Origin: Chloroflexota bacterium
Lineage (GTDB): Bacteria > Chloroflexota > Limnocylindria > P2-11E
Length of the DNA: 55,316 nt
NCBI GenBank assembly: GCA_005889295.1
Contig: VBEY01000231.1
Span: forward strand, 1-55,316
Direction: 5' to 3'
The position numbers were made by a program, and so were the translations under genes. The notes beneath the pieces were generated by a model. That model made no database searches. It was not told where the DNA came from and was given only the letters and a program-made list of their open reading frames with translations. The first letter of the stretch is position 1. Each line of letters begins with the position of its first letter. Shown here piece by piece: positions 1 to 55,316 of this stretch.

Positions 1-390
1 CCCGGGCGTCTCGAGCACGGTGCGGACGATCGAGTCCATCCATCGCGGCTGCTCGGAGATGTCGAACATCACCGCGGCGACCGCCTCGGGCGCTGCGTCG
101 AAGACCGACTGCACGGCGACGTCGAAACGCCGGTGCTCCGCAGGGAGCCACCACAGTGTCCAGAGGACCGCGAGGATCGCGAGGACCGCACCGAGAAGCG
201 GTGTCCCGACGAGGAACTCGACGATCACAAGGACGAAAGCGGCAACCGTGAGCTGTTGCGACTGCACGGCTCGCGACTCGAACACGAGGTAGTCGCGGCC
301 GTGTACCCCGGAGCGGTCGACGAGAAGTGCTCCGACCAGGAGTCCCACGACCAGAATGAAAAGCCCGGTCTGTATCAGCAGGAGGAGCAC
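1..390 (-). CDS. hypothetical membrane protein, 5' part only (continues past the window edge); N-terminal hydrophobic helices followed by the start of a soluble, possibly SRPBCC-like domain
   Basis: Own minus-strand translation from GTG at 390-388: VLLLLIQTGLFILVVGLLVGALLVDRSG...LWWLPAEHRRFDVAVQSVFDAAPEAVAAVMFDISEQPRWMDSIV. 130 codons are open to position 1 and third positions are G/C-rich. It is absent from the ORF track because there is no stop inside the window. Confidence 0.5.
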   Translation of the reverse strand, partial: MLLLLIQTGLFILVVGLLVGALLVDRSGVHGRDYLVFESRAVQSQQLTVAAFVLVIVEFLVGTPLLGAVLAILAVLWTLWWLPAEHRRFDVAVQSVFDAAPEAVAAVMFDISEQPRWMDSIVRTVLETPG

Positions 391-421
391 GCCCGCCCGA
401 GTCTAGACTCGGGCGGGCGTG
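388..421. promoter_or_regulatory. perfect 34-bp palindrome covering both divergent GTG starts; TAGACT -10-like hexamer on each strand (404-409 plus, 405-400 minus)
   Basis: CACGCCCGCCCGAGTCTAGACTCGGGCGGGCGTG pairs base for base from 388/421 to 404/405. The intergenic space is only 28 bp. Confidence 0.55.
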
Positions 422-859
422 GGGCAGTACGTCGTCACGAGCGATGCGCGACACGTGGACCGCAAGCTCGTCTGGCGTTTCCTTCACGACGAGGCGTACT
501 GGTCGCAGGGTGTGCCGCGCGACGTCGTCGACCGCGCCATCGACGGATCGATCTGCTTTTCAGCGTTCGAGGGCGACCCTGATCGCGACGGCCGGCAGGT
601 GGCCTTCGCGCGGGTGGTGACGGATCGGGCGACGTTCGCGTGGCTCTGCGACGTCTTCGTCCTCGCGGAGCATCGCGGCAAGGGCGTCGGCAAGCAGCTC
701 ATGGACGCGGTAATGGCGCACCCCGACCTGCAGGGTCTGCGCAACATCCTTCTCGCGACGCGCGACGCGCACGGTCTCTACGCGCGGTACGGATTCGTTC
801 CGCTCGCGGAGCCCGCGCGCTGGATGGCGATCCGGCGGCCGTACCGCTCGTCCCCATAG
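419..859 (+). CDS. GNAT family N-acetyltransferase
   Basis: 146 aa with an acetyl-CoA binding-type motif (AEHRGKGVGKQLMDAV) and the typical GNAT C-terminus (YARYGF). GTG start. Confidence 0.8.
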   Translation: MGQYVVTSDARHVDRKLVWRFLHDEAYWSQGVPRDVVDRAIDGSICFSAFEGDPDRDGRQVAFARVVTDRATFAWLCDVFVLAEHRGKGVGKQLMDAVMAHPDLQGLRNILLATRDAHGLYARYGFVPLAEPARWMAIRRPYRSSP

Positions 860-862
860 ACT
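857..862 (+). promoter_or_regulatory. TAGACT -10-like hexamer 6 nt upstream of ATG 869 (leaderless-type promoter)
   Basis: TAGACTCGGGCG is followed directly by ATG. The TAG of the hexamer is the stop codon of the GNAT gene. There is no Shine-Dalgarno sequence. Confidence 0.45.
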
Positions 863-868
863 CGGGCG

Positions 869-1390
869 ATGCGCGACACCGAGCTGATGGCGAAATGGTT
901 CGAGGACATCGCCGCGGGACTCCGCCGTCGAGTCAAAGCTCTCGACGAGGACGCGCTCGAGTGGCGCGCTGACGATCGCGGCAACAACATCCGCGAGACC
1001 GTTTGGCACATGGCGCGGTGGATCGACGTGCTCACGCGCATCCTCGGCGGCACGCAGGCTTCGACTGAACGGTGGTTCACCGACGGCTGGGCCGACCGGA
1101 CCGGCTATGACCCGCGGGGTCTCGGCGACGACGGACTTGGCGCGCTGAGCGGGTACACGTTCGAGGAGGTCCTCGCGATCCCTCGTCTAACGGCGACACA
1201 GCTCCTCGAGTACGTCGACTCGGTCAGCGCGCCTCTGGCGCAGCGCTTCCGCGCCCTCCCCGACGACGAGTCCGCCGCGAAGGCGGTACGCCGCGCGACC
1301 GGCATCCTCCAGGGCTGCTTCGCGCACATCGGCGAGATCGACGCGCTCCTCGCGATACGCGAGCGTTCCGCGCAGCGCGCGTCGGCGTAG
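869..1390 (+). CDS. DinB family protein
   Basis: 173 aa. N-terminal helix with a conserved His context (ETVWHMARWIDVL) and a C-terminal HIGEI motif, both typical of the DinB/YfiT-like fold. Confidence 0.65.
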   Translation: MRDTELMAKWFEDIAAGLRRRVKALDEDALEWRADDRGNNIRETVWHMARWIDVLTRILGGTQASTERWFTDGWADRTGYDPRGLGDDGLGALSGYTFEEVLAIPRLTATQLLEYVDSVSAPLAQRFRALPDDESAAKAVRRATGILQGCFAHIGEIDALLAIRERSAQRASA

Positions 1391-4174: not shown

Positions 4175-5320
4175 TCAGACCGCCTTCTCGCCGGCTTCGC
4201 CGTCGAATCTCCCGAGACGGGACGCTCCCATCATCTCGCCGAGCAGCTGGTGGTACGGCACGCCGGTGAAGAGGTGGTGGCTCTTCGTCGGGATGTCGTC
4301 GTCGGGCGCCCATTCTTTGCGTTGCAGCGCGATGTAGGCGCGCTCCTGCTCCTCCGAGAGACCCTGGAGCAGCTTGCTGAAGGCGTAGCCCATGGCGTGC
4401 TGGGCCGCCAGGGTGATGAATAGGAACTTGTACCCGAGCTCCCCGAGCTCGGCGAAGGAGATCGGGTTCGGGTCGTTGAACCACTTGAAAGAGCTCGACC
4501 AGTTGAACGCGAGCTTCGCGTCGGGGAAGCGGCGTCGCACCTGGTCGGCGAACCGTTCGGTTGGCTCGCGGTCGGAGTTCGGGAACTCGCACCAGACCAG
4601 GTCGGGCGCGCCGCTGTCGAGATACCGGAGCGCGCGTTCGATCGCGAGGTCGAGTCCGCGCGTCCTCTCCGGCGCGTCCACGGCTGAGACCGCGTCGGTG
4701 CGTGCGATCACGACGAAATCGTCACGCCCCAGGTCCTCGGCGACGGCTCGCGCCATGCGCAGCTTGCCGATCATCTCATCGGCCGAGATCAAGGCCTTGC
4801 CGGCGATGTGACCGCAGCGTTTGGGGAGGACCTGATCCTCGATGTGGGCGCCCGCGACACCGGCGTTCACGTACAGCTCGGCGACGCGCTGCACGTTGAA
4901 GAGATTTCCGTAACCGCCGTCCATGTCGACGACGACGGGCGGGATCTCGAGATGGGTCGGGGCGACGCCCTTCTCAGGGTCGCCGGTGGCCATCGTGAGC
5001 TGGAACTTGCGTAGCGCCGAGACCGTGCGGCGCGCGCCGTCGGCGATCTCAGGTCCCGAGTAGAGGTCCATGTCGGTCGTGCCGAGGTGTCCGATCGCGA
5101 ACGAGTACCCCGAGAAATAAATCGCCGTCGCCCGGTGGTACATCGCGATCTCGGCGCCGTGCGGGTCGTAGATACCGGGCGCGAACACGTACGGCTCGCT
5201 CTGCAGTAACTGGCGGAGGCGTGTCGCCGGATCGGTCCATCGCGAAGCCGGCACGGTGAAGCCCGGCGGCAGGAGCGCCGTCTCGGCAAGAGCGGCGTGC
5301 GCACGAACGGTCGTGGCCAT
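4175..5320 (-). CDS. isocitrate lyase family protein
   Basis: 381 aa with the ICL signature KRCGHIAGK plus NWSSSFKW and FITLAAQHA, which parallel the NCSPSFNW and FITLAG motifs of ICL. GGAGGGG lies 6 nt upstream of the ATG. Confidence 0.85.
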   Translation of the reverse strand: MATTVRAHAALAETALLPPGFTVPASRWTDPATRLRQLLQSEPYVFAPGIYDPHGAEIAMYHRATAIYFSGYSFAIGHLGTTDMDLYSGPEIADGARRTVSALRKFQLTMATGDPEKGVAPTHLEIPPVVVDMDGGYGNLFNVQRVAELYVNAGVAGAHIEDQVLPKRCGHIAGKALISADEMIGKLRMARAVAEDLGRDDFVVIARTDAVSAVDAPERTRGLDLAIERALRYLDSGAPDLVWCEFPNSDREPTERFADQVRRRFPDAKLAFNWSSSFKWFNDPNPISFAELGELGYKFLFITLAAQHAMGYAFSKLLQGLSEEQERAYIALQRKEWAPDDDIPTKSHHLFTGVPYHQLLGEMMGASRLGRFDGEAGEKAV

Positions 5321-55187: not shown

Positions 55188-55193
55188 TAGACT
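55188..55193 (+). promoter_or_regulatory. TAGACT -10-like hexamer 6 nt upstream of ATG 55200 (third plus-strand copy of TAGACTCGGGCG)
   Basis: CTAGACTCGGGCG followed directly by ATG. Confidence 0.45.
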
Positions 55194-55199
55194 CGGGCG

Positions 55200-55316
55200 A
55201 TGGCCGACCTCGCGATCGTCGCATTCGTCCTCGTCGGGGCAGTCATCGGCTTCTCAAAGGGGTTCGTCCTGCCGCTCGTGGCGGCGGGCGGGGCGCTCAT
55301 CACCACGACGTTCCTC
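55200..55316 (+). CDS. CvpA-like membrane protein, 5' part only
   Basis: Own reading: MADLAIVAFVLVGAVIGFSKGFVLPLVAAGGALITTTFL. It resembles CvpA N-termini and runs off the window. Confidence 0.5.
   Translation, partial: MADLAIVAFVLVGAVIGFSKGFVLPLVAAGGALITTTFL

What the first reader, a model, noticed from the sequence alone, without database searches (positions are those of the whole stretch)
388..421. Perfect 34-bp palindrome containing two divergent GTG start codons and back-to-back TAGACT boxes
Positions 388-421 (CACGCCCGCCCGAGTCTAGACTCGGGCGGGCGTG) are perfectly self-complementary. The outer triplets are the GTG start of the GNAT gene (419) and the GTG start of a minus-strand membrane-protein gene (390) that the ORF track misses. 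TAGACT, a TANNNT-class -10 hexamer, occurs on the plus strand at 404-409 and on the minus strand at 405-400; the two copies share the central TA. Each hexamer lies 9 nt from its start codon. The intergenic space is only 28 bp, so any -35 or activator site for one gene must lie inside the coding sequence of the other. I read this as either a fully symmetric bidirectional promoter making (near-)leaderless mRNAs, or a dimeric-regulator operator that exactly covers both promoters and both initiation codons.
Basis: partly seen in the sequence, partly recalled or inferred. Interest (0 to 1): 0.6.

Follow-up and report, generated by a model that had tools for sequence, protein, structure and literature searches.

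The report
Palindromic two-way promoter for leaderless genes
The 34-bp perfect palindrome is real and is most likely a very compact two-way promoter, with two back-to-back TAGACT -10 boxes sharing one TA step, that starts two divergent genes at or next to their start codons; this is a known promoter type, and the perfect symmetry is a recent strain-level mutation rather than a conserved regulator site.

Summary
Observation confirmed. Positions 388-421 form a perfect 34-bp palindrome, the longest in this 3.23-Mb soil Chloroflexota (Ca. Limnocylindria) MAG. The same allele occurs in three independent metagenome assemblies.

Its outer triplets are the GTG starts of a GNAT gene (419, +) and a TM+SRPBCC gene (390, -). 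The centre AGTCTAGACT holds two TAGACT hexamers sharing one TA.

Genome-wide, TANNNT piles up 6-9 nt before start codons (about 10% of ORFs). These sites rarely also carry a Shine-Dalgarno-like word. TAGACT is the commonest such hexamer, and 40 of its 83 copies sit before a start.

Divergent leaderless pairs use two hexamer geometries: TANNNTA (11 loci) and the TA-sharing ANNNTANNNT (12 loci, this one included). These correspond to the published 18-bp and 23-bp bidirectional-promoter classes.

Across 15 congeneric species both TA...T hexamers and both start codons are kept. The arms vary.

The perfect arms are derived within one species. The sister haplotype and all sister species carry an imperfect 8-nt right arm. 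A clustered 1-indel plus 2-substitution change made the right arm the exact complement of the left, which is the signature of a quasi-palindrome template switch.

The operator reading is not supported. This is a new member of a known kind, of modest interest.

The parts
388..421 (.). Perfect 34-bp palindrome, running from start codon to start codon and covering the whole intergenic region
   Evidence: The same allele is present in L106, L108 and L109.
404..409 (+). -10 hexamer TAGACT for the GNAT gene. T404/A405 are shared with the opposite hexamer.
   Evidence: TA...T is kept in 15 congeneric orthologues as TAGACT, TAAAGT, TAAACT or TACACT. TAGACT is the commonest -10 of leaderless candidates in this genome.
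400..405 (-). -10 hexamer TAGACT (AGTCTA on the + strand) for the TM+SRPBCC gene
   Evidence: Kept as TAGACT or TAAAGT in the orthologues.
410..418 (+). 9-nt spacer/discriminator CGGGCGGGC on the GNAT side. Positions 411-416 are the derived tract; the ancestral spacer is the 8-nt CGCCGCGC. Predicted TSS at G416-G419.
   Evidence: The TSS position is inferred from -10 geometry, not measured.
391..399 (-). 9-nt spacer CGGGCGGGC on the membrane-gene side. It is ancestral in this species and is the likely template for the conversion of the right arm. Predicted TSS at 393-390.
419..859 (+). GNAT N-acetyltransferase gene, 146 aa, GTG start
   Evidence: Pfam Acetyltransf_7/_1. The start codon alternates ATG/GTG at the same position in orthologues. 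Homologues in other phyla align from residues 1-6.
1..390 (-). 5' part (130 codons) of a 241-codon membrane-anchored SRPBCC (Polyketide_cyc2) gene, GTG start at 390. It is cut by the contig end.
857..868 (+). Second TAGACT promoter, TAGACT-CGGGCG-ATG. Its TAG is the GNAT stop codon. It drives a leaderless DinB_2 gene (869-1390).
   Evidence: TA(G/A)ACT-N6-ATG is conserved in relatives.
55188..55199 (+). Third copy of TAGACTCGGGCG, directly before the ATG at 55200 of a small membrane protein (CvpA-like by eye; not tested against a family library)
   Evidence: TA(G/A)ACT-N6-7-start is conserved in the genus; the spacer sequence is not.

Best explanation
The palindrome is a bidirectional promoter of the TA-sharing type. 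Two consensus-like -10 hexamers (TAGACT) lie back to back on opposite strands. The T-12/A-11 of one is base-paired to the A-11/T-12 of the other (AGTCTAGACT, 400-409).

One RNA polymerase holoenzyme can bind in either orientation, but not both at once. It melts outwards from the central TA and starts 7-10 nt beyond its hexamer, at G416-G419 rightwards and 393-390 leftwards. The two mRNAs therefore begin at, or 1-3 nt before, the GTG start codons of the GNAT gene and the TM+SRPBCC gene. They would be translated without a Shine-Dalgarno sequence (leaderless initiation).

No -35 element is needed or present. This organism's leaderless promoters look -10-only.

The 12-bp core palindrome GAGTCTAGACTC follows simply from placing two consensus half-promoters (TAGACT plus C) back to back. 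The extension to a perfect 34-mer is a recent event in one haplotype of one species. A single quasi-palindrome template switch during replication recopied the right spacer from the left arm, turning CGCCGCGC into CGGGCGGGC.

Shown: the sequence, the genome-wide geometry, the conservation pattern, and the derived polymorphic state of the arms. Inferred: actual TSS positions, RNAP binding in both directions, leaderless translation, and the template-switch mechanism.
For: Leaderless geometry in this genome:
- TANNNT peaks 6-9 nt before the first start of 2579 high-confidence ORFs: 105, 55, 36 and 74 cases against a background of about 7 per position.
- Only 8 of 271 such starts also have an SD-like word, compared with 574 of 2583 overall.
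- TAGACT is the commonest hexamer in that set, 24 of 270, with C preferred at the next base.
- 40 of the 83 TAGACT copies in the genome lie 5-10 nt before a good start, compared with 7-8% for same-composition control hexamers. Spacers of 6, 7, 8 and 9 nt are about equally used.

Recurrent bidirectional geometry:
- Among divergent gene pairs with a TANNNT on both sides, hexamer offsets cluster at two values only: -1 (TANNNTA, 11 loci) and +4 (ANNNTANNNT, 12 loci including this one). Every other offset from -8 to +60 has 4 or fewer.
- Per occurrence of the core, 4.4% and 10.3% are flanked by divergent starts, compared with 0.1-0.5% for control cores.
- By arithmetic these two offsets give TSS separations of 18 and 23 bp. 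The literature names 18 bp as the commonest bidirectional-promoter spacing and 10 and 23 bp as also common (PMC12825309; PMC10268837).

Conservation:
- In 15 congeneric orthologous loci (70-86% identity) A400, T402, T404, A405, A407 and T409 are invariant.
- Positions 401, 403, 406 and 408 vary, sometimes on one strand only (TAAAGT on + with TAGACT on -), which breaks the palindrome but keeps both -10 boxes.
- Both start codons stay in place (ATG/GTG on +; GTG/TTG on -), with spacers of 7-9 nt.

Origin of the perfect arms:
- The perfect allele is found in the window and in L106, L108 and L109. It is nested within one species, whose other haplotype (C277, L107, L110) has the right arm CGCCGCGC. 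All sister species have 8-9-nt imperfect right arms.
- The two haplotypes differ at 411, 413 and 416 (1 indel plus 2 substitutions within 6 nt), and there are no other differences within about 45 nt on either side. The derived tract is the exact reverse complement of the unchanged left arm.
- Such clustered, arm-homogenising changes are the known signature of quasi-palindrome template switching (PMC7202029, PMC8794818, PMC13100816).
Against: - There is no direct transcript 5'-end evidence.
- A 9-nt spacer puts the start codon 2-3 nt beyond the textbook optimal TSS position, so the mRNAs may carry a 1-3-nt leader rather than none. Whether this organism's ribosomes accept that, or a 5'-terminal GUG, is inferred from other high-GC bacteria, not shown.
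- A generic sigma-70 consensus scan finds no promoter here. That is expected for a -10-only promoter, but it means nothing independent confirms it.
- Within-species arm complementarity across orthologues is slightly above the cross-species control (0.565 against 0.52, permutation p = 0.04, not corrected for phylogeny). One distant species (L011) has independently complementary arms of a different sequence. Some pressure or mutational bias towards symmetry beyond the -10 boxes therefore cannot be excluded.
Confidence: 0.72

Rival explanations
1. The palindrome is the operator of a dimeric transcription factor that covers both promoters and both start codons and co-represses the two genes.
For: - It has perfect dyad symmetry of a size that suits a dimer.
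- Several orthologues keep a 14-16-bp palindromic core GCGAGTCTAGACTCGC.
- There is slight excess arm complementarity across species, p = 0.04.
- Template switching can create new dyad sites in promoters (PMC13100816).
Against: - The arms are not conserved. The closest haplotype, 96.5% identical, already has 3 of 8 complementary arm positions, and the sister species have 2-7 of 6-8 with unrelated sequences.
- In four species the core itself is asymmetric (TAAAGT against TAGACT) while both TA...T hexamers persist.
- The half-site GACTCGGGCGGGCGTG has no other copy in the window, even with 3 mismatches. The shorter 12-mer occurs only in promoter-like positions before start codons.
- No regulator gene lies next to it. 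The neighbours are GNAT, SRPBCC, DinB_2 and acyl-CoA dehydrogenase genes.
- The core palindrome is explained by two consensus half-promoters, TAGACT plus CG.
Confidence: 0.1
2. The symmetry serves a DNA-structural role: cruciform extrusion that tunes promoter opening with supercoiling, or a recombination or replication site.
For: - As single-stranded DNA the 34-mer folds into a 15-bp hairpin, -22.7 kcal/mol, z = -6.9 against shuffles.
- The centre TCTAGA is AT-rich, which favours extrusion.
Against: - The long stem exists in one haplotype only, and relatives do without it.
- It is single-copy in the genome and synteny is unchanged in relatives, so it is not a mobile-element end or attachment site.
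- Each predicted mRNA contains only one arm, so no RNA hairpin forms.
- There is no Rfam match and no terminator-like T tract.
Confidence: 0.05
3. The TAGACT boxes are not promoters here. The genes are read from upstream promoters inside the neighbouring coding regions, and the palindrome is a neutral by-product.
For: - There are no TSS data.
- In-frame TAG stops inflate the counts at spacers of 6 and 9 nt when the first start of an ORF is used.
Against: - Enrichment is just as clear at the out-of-frame spacers of 7 and 8 nt (55 and 36 against about 7).
- The hexamers and spacing are conserved across the genus while the flanking intergenic bases vary.
- There is no SD-like sequence in the 28-bp gap.
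- SD-like words and TANNNT rarely occur at the same start genome-wide.
Confidence: 0.08
4. Assembly artefact: a strand switch of the assembler at the palindromic core.
For: - The contig ends 388 nt from the palindrome.
- A second contig (C277) overlaps it with a different arm.
Against: - The identical perfect allele, with the same flanking haplotype markers (A355, A464), is present in three independent metagenome assemblies. The imperfect allele is present in two others.
- The flanks on the two sides are unrelated coding sequences, not a fold-back.
Confidence: 0.01

Closest known systems
Bidirectional bacterial promoters with symmetric/overlapping -10 elements (Warman et al. 2021, Nat Microbiol, as cited in PMC10268837 and PMC12825309); specifically the configuration with divergent TSSs 23 bp apart
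   Same: - Two -10 hexamers on opposite strands share key bases.
- Opposing polymerases cannot bind at the same time.
- The site is short and intergenic and drives two divergent mRNAs.
- This genome also shows the commoner 18-bp configuration (TANNNTA) at 11 loci.
   Different: - Here both transcripts are predicted to be leaderless or nearly so. The start codons are only 29 nt apart, and the promoter, both TSSs and both initiation codons fit in 34 bp.
- The hexamer is TAGACT in a 67% GC Chloroflexota genome, with no -35 signal.
- The described cases are experimentally mapped, mainly in E. coli and Salmonella. This one is inferred from sequence.
TA-led (leaderless) genes of high-GC bacteria (Zheng et al. 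2011, PMC3160421): TANNNT about 10 bp before the start codon in Actinobacteria and Deinococcus-Thermus
   Same: - The -10 pattern is TANNNT with uninformative middle positions.
- It is positioned 6-9 nt before ATG/GTG, with no SD.
- About 10-16% of genes are affected.
   Different: - The lineage is Ca. Limnocylindria, an uncultured soil Chloroflexota class.
- That paper describes medium-GC Chloroflexi as having a TAtaaT-like signal. This high-GC member has TAG(A/C)CT.
Quasi-palindrome-associated template-switch mutations (PMC7202029; PMC8794818; promoter example in yeast, PMC13100816)
   Same: - A clustered multi-nucleotide change turns an imperfect inverted repeat into a perfect one.
- The new sequence is the exact reverse complement of the other arm.
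- The ancestral imperfect state is preserved in sister lineages.
   Different: It is observed here as a natural polymorphism between co-occurring haplotypes of an uncultured soil bacterium, at a promoter whose core is palindromic for functional reasons. The mechanism is inferred, not watched.

Membership tests
Bidirectional promoter with shared -10 symmetry (23-bp class) | Two -10 elements on opposite strands overlapping so that key bases are reciprocally placed | tested here: met
   AGTCTAGACT at 400-409. T404/A405 serve as -12/-11 on the + strand and -11/-12 on the - strand. The same geometry occurs at 12 divergent pairs in the genome, compared with 0.1-0.5% per occurrence for control cores.
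Bidirectional promoter with shared -10 symmetry (23-bp class) | Divergent TSSs mapped 7-25 bp apart on opposite strands | not testable with these tools
Predicted separation is 23 bp (416/393) to 29 bp (419/390).
Bidirectional promoter with shared -10 symmetry (23-bp class) | Conservation of -11A and -7T of both hexamers | tested here: met
   A400, T404, A405 and T409 are invariant in 15 congeneric orthologues while positions 401, 403, 406 and 408 vary.
Leaderless (TA-led) genes | TANNNT about 6-9 nt before the start codon, with significant positional enrichment genome-wide | tested here: met
   Both sides have TAGACT-N9-GTG. Genome-wide there is a peak at 6-9 nt. 40 of 83 TAGACT copies lie before a start.
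Leaderless (TA-led) genes | No Shine-Dalgarno sequence | tested here: met
   There is no GGAG, GAGG or AGGA in 391-418 on either strand. Genome-wide, only 8 of 271 TANNNT-preceded first starts also carry an SD-like word.
Leaderless (TA-led) genes | mRNA 5' end at the start codon and translation from it | not testable with these tools
   No RNA data. With a 9-nt spacer a 0-3-nt leader is predicted.
Palindromic operator of a dimeric regulator | Half-sites conserved in orthologous promoters | tested here: not met
   The arm sequences differ between species and between haplotypes of one species.
Palindromic operator of a dimeric regulator | Further sites in the genome, or a cognate regulator gene nearby | tested here: not met
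   The half-site is unique. The neighbours are GNAT, SRPBCC, DinB_2 and ACAD genes.
Quasi-palindrome template-switch mutation | Clustered changes whose product is the exact reverse complement of the nearby arm, with the imperfect state ancestral | tested here: met
   The differences at 411, 413 and 416 are the only ones within about 45 nt on either side. The tree places the perfect allele as derived within one species.
Intrinsic terminator | GC-rich hairpin followed by a T tract at the 3' end of a gene | tested here: not met
   No terminator-like site is found. Both flanking genes start here; neither ends here.
Repeated palindromic element (REP/MITE) | Many copies in the genome | tested here: not met
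   There is a single locus. C277 is the same locus from another haplotype.

The most novel reading that the evidence does not exclude
Limnocylindria may run a substantial share of their divergent gene pairs from ultra-compact, doubly leaderless bidirectional promoters of two discrete geometries (18-bp and 23-bp classes). In these, 17-34 bp carry all the transcription- and translation-initiation information for two genes. Because the cores are intrinsically quasi-palindromic, replication template switching would recurrently extend them into long perfect dyads (here 34 bp; independently in species L011). That would supply raw material for new operators or supercoiling-sensitive switches. The perfect allele would then differ measurably from the ancestral one in the balance between the two directions.
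Probability: 0.2. Interest if true: 0.5.

Novelty: new member of a known kind. Interest (0 to 1): 0.3.

Why it matters
- It gives sequence-level evidence that an uncultured, abundant soil lineage (Ca. Limnocylindria) uses -10-only promoters and leaderless mRNAs for roughly a tenth of its genes. That affects start-codon calling and promoter prediction in these MAGs. Starts such as GTG 390 and 419 are fixed by the promoter, not by an RBS.
- It shows that both bidirectional-promoter geometries described in E. coli recur in a distant phylum, here with both messages leaderless.
- It captures, as a natural polymorphism, a template-switch event that perfected a promoter palindrome.
- None of this overturns current understanding.

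Tried and rejected
- Generic sigma-70 promoter and terminator scan of 1-1500: nothing found. This is uninformative for -10-only promoters.
- Rfam at E up to 1 on 1-1500: only sub-threshold chance hits, the best at the palindrome being a miRNA model at 19.9 bits against a cut-off of 88.
- CarD-type open-complex stabiliser (PF02559) in the genome: only the Mfd/TRCF-sized frame matches. No separate small CarD was found in this 92%-complete MAG, so no conclusion is drawn.
- My first count of close divergent pairs used only the first in-frame start of each ORF and missed most cases, because upstream in-frame starts lie in the neighbour's coding region. I replaced it with the core-pattern and control comparison.
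- The Warman 2021 primary paper is not held in the library. Its statements are cited through PMC10268837 and PMC12825309.
- The exact 12-mer TAGACTCGGGCG at three promoters was considered as a regulon half-site. Orthologous promoters in sister species keep TA(G/A)ACT and the spacing but not CGGGCG. I read the identity as consensus-like discriminators (C, then G, preferred) plus chance. It remains slightly more frequent than I can account for.
- Ectopic conversion of the right arm from the promoter at 857 or 55188 was rejected, because only the left arm matches all 9 spacer bases plus GTG.

Full report
**1. What is there**

Window 388-421 is CACGCCCGCCCGAGTCTAGACTCGGGCGGGCGTG, a perfect 34-bp palindrome with 17-nt arms and no spacer.
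- The window is the whole contig C250 of a 3.23-Mb, 339-contig, 66.9% GC MAG.
- This is the longest perfect palindrome in that genome. The runners-up are 32 and 28 bp, and a first-order Markov genome of equal size reached 26 bp.
- GTG at 419 opens a 146-aa GNAT acetyltransferase gene (Pfam Acetyltransf_7, E 2.6e-14).
- GTG at 390 on the minus strand opens a gene that the contig end cuts after 130 codons.
- The complete 241-codon form is seen in contig C277 and in metagenome contig L106. It has hydrophobic N-terminal segments (judged by eye) and a Polyketide_cyc2/SRPBCC domain, E 2.7e-10.
- Both frames open immediately after the in-frame TAG of the palindrome centre, so neither gene can start further upstream.
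- Relatives named in public records are soil Chloroflexota MAGs, several labelled Candidatus Limnocylindria.

**2. It is real and polymorphic**

A 21-mer spanning the left arm and core finds five metagenome contigs.
- Three (L106, L108, L109) carry the perfect 34-mer with the window's flanking haplotype.
- Two (L107, L110) carry an imperfect version in which the right spacer is CGCCGCGC.
- The MAG itself holds that second haplotype as contig C277. Its first 631 nt are the reverse complement of window 1-632 at 96.5% identity.
- Among the 22 differences, three (deletion of 411, G413C, G416C) sit within 6 nt in the right arm. There are no other differences within about 45 nt on either side.
- An assembly artefact is therefore excluded.

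**3. TAGACT is this organism's leaderless -10 box**

- For 2579 high-confidence ORFs (at least 120 codons, high GC3, low GC2), TANNNT occurs 6, 7, 8 and 9 nt before the first start codon in 105, 55, 36 and 74 cases. The background is about 7 per position.
- In-frame TAG/TAA inflates the counts at 6 and 9 nt. The out-of-frame 7 and 8 nt are just as clearly enriched.
- TAGACT is the most frequent hexamer in this set (24 of 270). The consensus is TAG(A/C)CT followed by C, and no -35 or extended -10 signal appears upstream.
- The genome has only 83 TAGACT copies. Forty of them lie 5-10 nt before a start codon that opens a good ORF, compared with 7-8% for the same-composition hexamers TCAGAT and TTCAGA. 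Spacers of 6, 7, 8 and 9 nt are used 8, 12, 8 and 9 times.
- SD-like words and TANNNT rarely occur at the same start: 8 starts have both, out of 271 with TANNNT and 574 with an SD-like word.
- This is the TA-led, leaderless pattern described for high-GC bacteria (PMC3160421).
- Both sides of the palindrome are TAGACT-N9-GTG with no SD-like word in the 28-bp gap.

**4. The TA-sharing arrangement is a recurrent architecture**

I listed every divergent pair in which both genes have TANNNT 5-10 nt before a start.
- The offset between the two hexamers takes two favoured values. Offset -1 (TANNNTA) occurs at 11 loci. Offset +4 (ANNNTANNNT, the two hexamers sharing TA) occurs at 12 loci, including C250 and its haplotype C277.
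- No other offset from -8 to +60 exceeds 4.
- These two are the only overlaps that save two fixed bases, so I checked controls of the same composition. Real cores are flanked by divergent starts in 4.4% (12 of 274) and 10.3% (11 of 107) of their occurrences. Control cores are so flanked in 0.1-0.5%.
- With the hexamer at -12 to -7, the two offsets put divergent TSSs 18 and 23 bp apart.
- The literature on bidirectional promoters states that 18 bp is the commonest separation and that 10 and 23 bp are also common. It also states that opposing polymerases cannot bind together (PMC12825309; PMC10268837).
- I could not see that paper's supplementary figure. Equating the TA-sharing form with the 23-bp class is my own arithmetic.

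**5. What is conserved**

The SRPBCC/GNAT divergent pair is present in at least 15 species of the same genus at 70-86% identity. In their alignment:
- A400, T402, T404, A405, A407 and T409 never change.
- Positions 401, 403, 406 and 408 do change.
- The plus hexamer is TAGACT, TAAAGT, TAAACT or TACACT. The minus hexamer is TAGACT or TAAAGT.
- Four species have TAAAGT on one strand and TAGACT on the other. This destroys the core palindrome but keeps both -10 boxes.
- The start codons stay put: ATG or GTG on plus, GTG or TTG on minus.
- The spacers are 7-9 nt and vary in sequence.

More distant Limnocylindria keep TAAACT or TAAAGT 7 nt before the GNAT ATG, without the partner gene. This is the footprint of two promoters, not of a sequence-specific dyad operator.

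**6. Where the perfect symmetry came from**

A tree was built from the flanking 850 nt with the palindrome masked.
- It places the perfect-allele sequences (window, L106, L108, L109) as one subgroup of a single species.
- The other subgroup of that species (L107, L110) and all sister species have imperfect right arms: CGCCGCGC, CGGCGCGC, CGCCGGGC and others.
- The left arm, CGGGCGGGC read on the minus strand, is shared by both haplotypes. The new right arm is its exact complement.
- One indel plus two substitutions, packed into 6 nt and all restoring complementarity, is what a single quasi-palindrome template switch produces (PMC7202029, PMC8794818, PMC13100816).
- Arm complementarity in the other 14 orthologues is only marginally above a cross-species control: 0.565 against 0.52, p = 0.04, uncorrected for phylogeny.
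- One species (L011) has 7 of 8 complementary arm positions with an unrelated sequence. Such extensions may therefore recur.

**7. Mechanism proposed**

- One holoenzyme binds in either orientation at the shared TA.
- It flips out A405 for rightward transcription, or the A opposite T404 for leftward transcription.
- It opens the DNA outward and starts at G416-G419 or at 393-390.
- The messages carry 0-3 nt before GUG and are translated without an SD.
- The -35 positions fall inside the neighbour's coding sequence and show no signal.
- All of this step is inferred.

**8. Rivals**

- Operator: not supported. The arms and even the core symmetry are not conserved, the half-site is unique, and no regulator gene is adjacent.
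- Structural or cruciform role: the DNA hairpin is stable (-22.7 kcal/mol), but it is present in one haplotype only.
- Terminator, known RNA or repeat element: no.

**9. Earlier notes of this scan**

Earlier first-reader notes on the same window had listed the 12-mer TAGACTCGGGCG at three loci and the TANNNT-before-start pattern. I tested both.
- The pattern is genome-wide.
- The 12-mer's TAGACT and spacing are conserved at the DinB_2 and membrane-protein promoters in relatives. The CGGGCG spacer is not.

**10. Verdict**

- The kind of element is already known.
- The perfect palindrome is a young, probably neutral by-product.
- Interest is modest (0.3).

Noticed in passing
window 857-868 and 55188-55199 (also 394-405 on the minus strand and 404-415): The exact 12-mer TAGACTCGGGCG precedes three different genes on this one contig and occurs nowhere else in the genome, apart from the C277 copy of this same locus. 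From the discriminator frequencies I expect about 0.1-0.2 such identities among roughly 40 TAGACT promoters. Sister species keep TAGACT and the spacing at the orthologous promoters but not CGGGCG. This is unexplained beyond consensus preference plus chance.
   Followed up: partly
window 857-871: The GNAT stop codon TAG (857-859) is itself the first three bases of the TAGACT -10 box of the next gene (DinB_2, ATG 869). An internal leaderless promoter therefore overlaps a stop codon. In four relatives (L014, L015, L018, L019) the DinB_2 gene sits elsewhere, in another TA-sharing bidirectional promoter, ACCATAGACT, with TATGGT-N6-ATG on the opposite strand.
   Followed up: partly
window 1-632 and genome contig C277:1-631: The MAG contains two haplotypes of this locus at 96.5% identity, as overlapping contig ends. 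The assembly broke here because of strain variation, and C277 is the leftward continuation of the window.
   Followed up: yes
genome contigs C198:13337-13368 and C328:8223-8250 (outside the window): Two other perfect palindromes are far longer than chance predicts: 32 bp (GTGGCGCGGTGGGAACGTTCCCACCGCGCCAC) and 28 bp (GAAGGGGAGGACGCGCGTCCTCCCCTTC). They were not examined.
   Followed up: no
whole genome: TAGACT (83 copies) is 6-7 times rarer than same-composition hexamers (TCAGAT 629, TTCAGA 501). Cores containing the TA step are rare overall: TANNNTA has 107 copies compared with about 2000-2500 for controls. This suggests avoidance of promoter-like words outside promoters, or general TA/CTAG depletion.
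   Followed up: partly
It has TAACCT on the minus strand 11 nt from its start and only AACGAT on the plus strand. It fits neither of the two canonical overlapping-hexamer geometries.
   Followed up: partly
genome contig C274, approx. 5180-5200 (outside the window): Another divergent pair has two TAGACT boxes directly abutting (AGTCTATAGACT, a 12-bp palindrome). This is a third, non-overlapping back-to-back arrangement.
   Followed up: no
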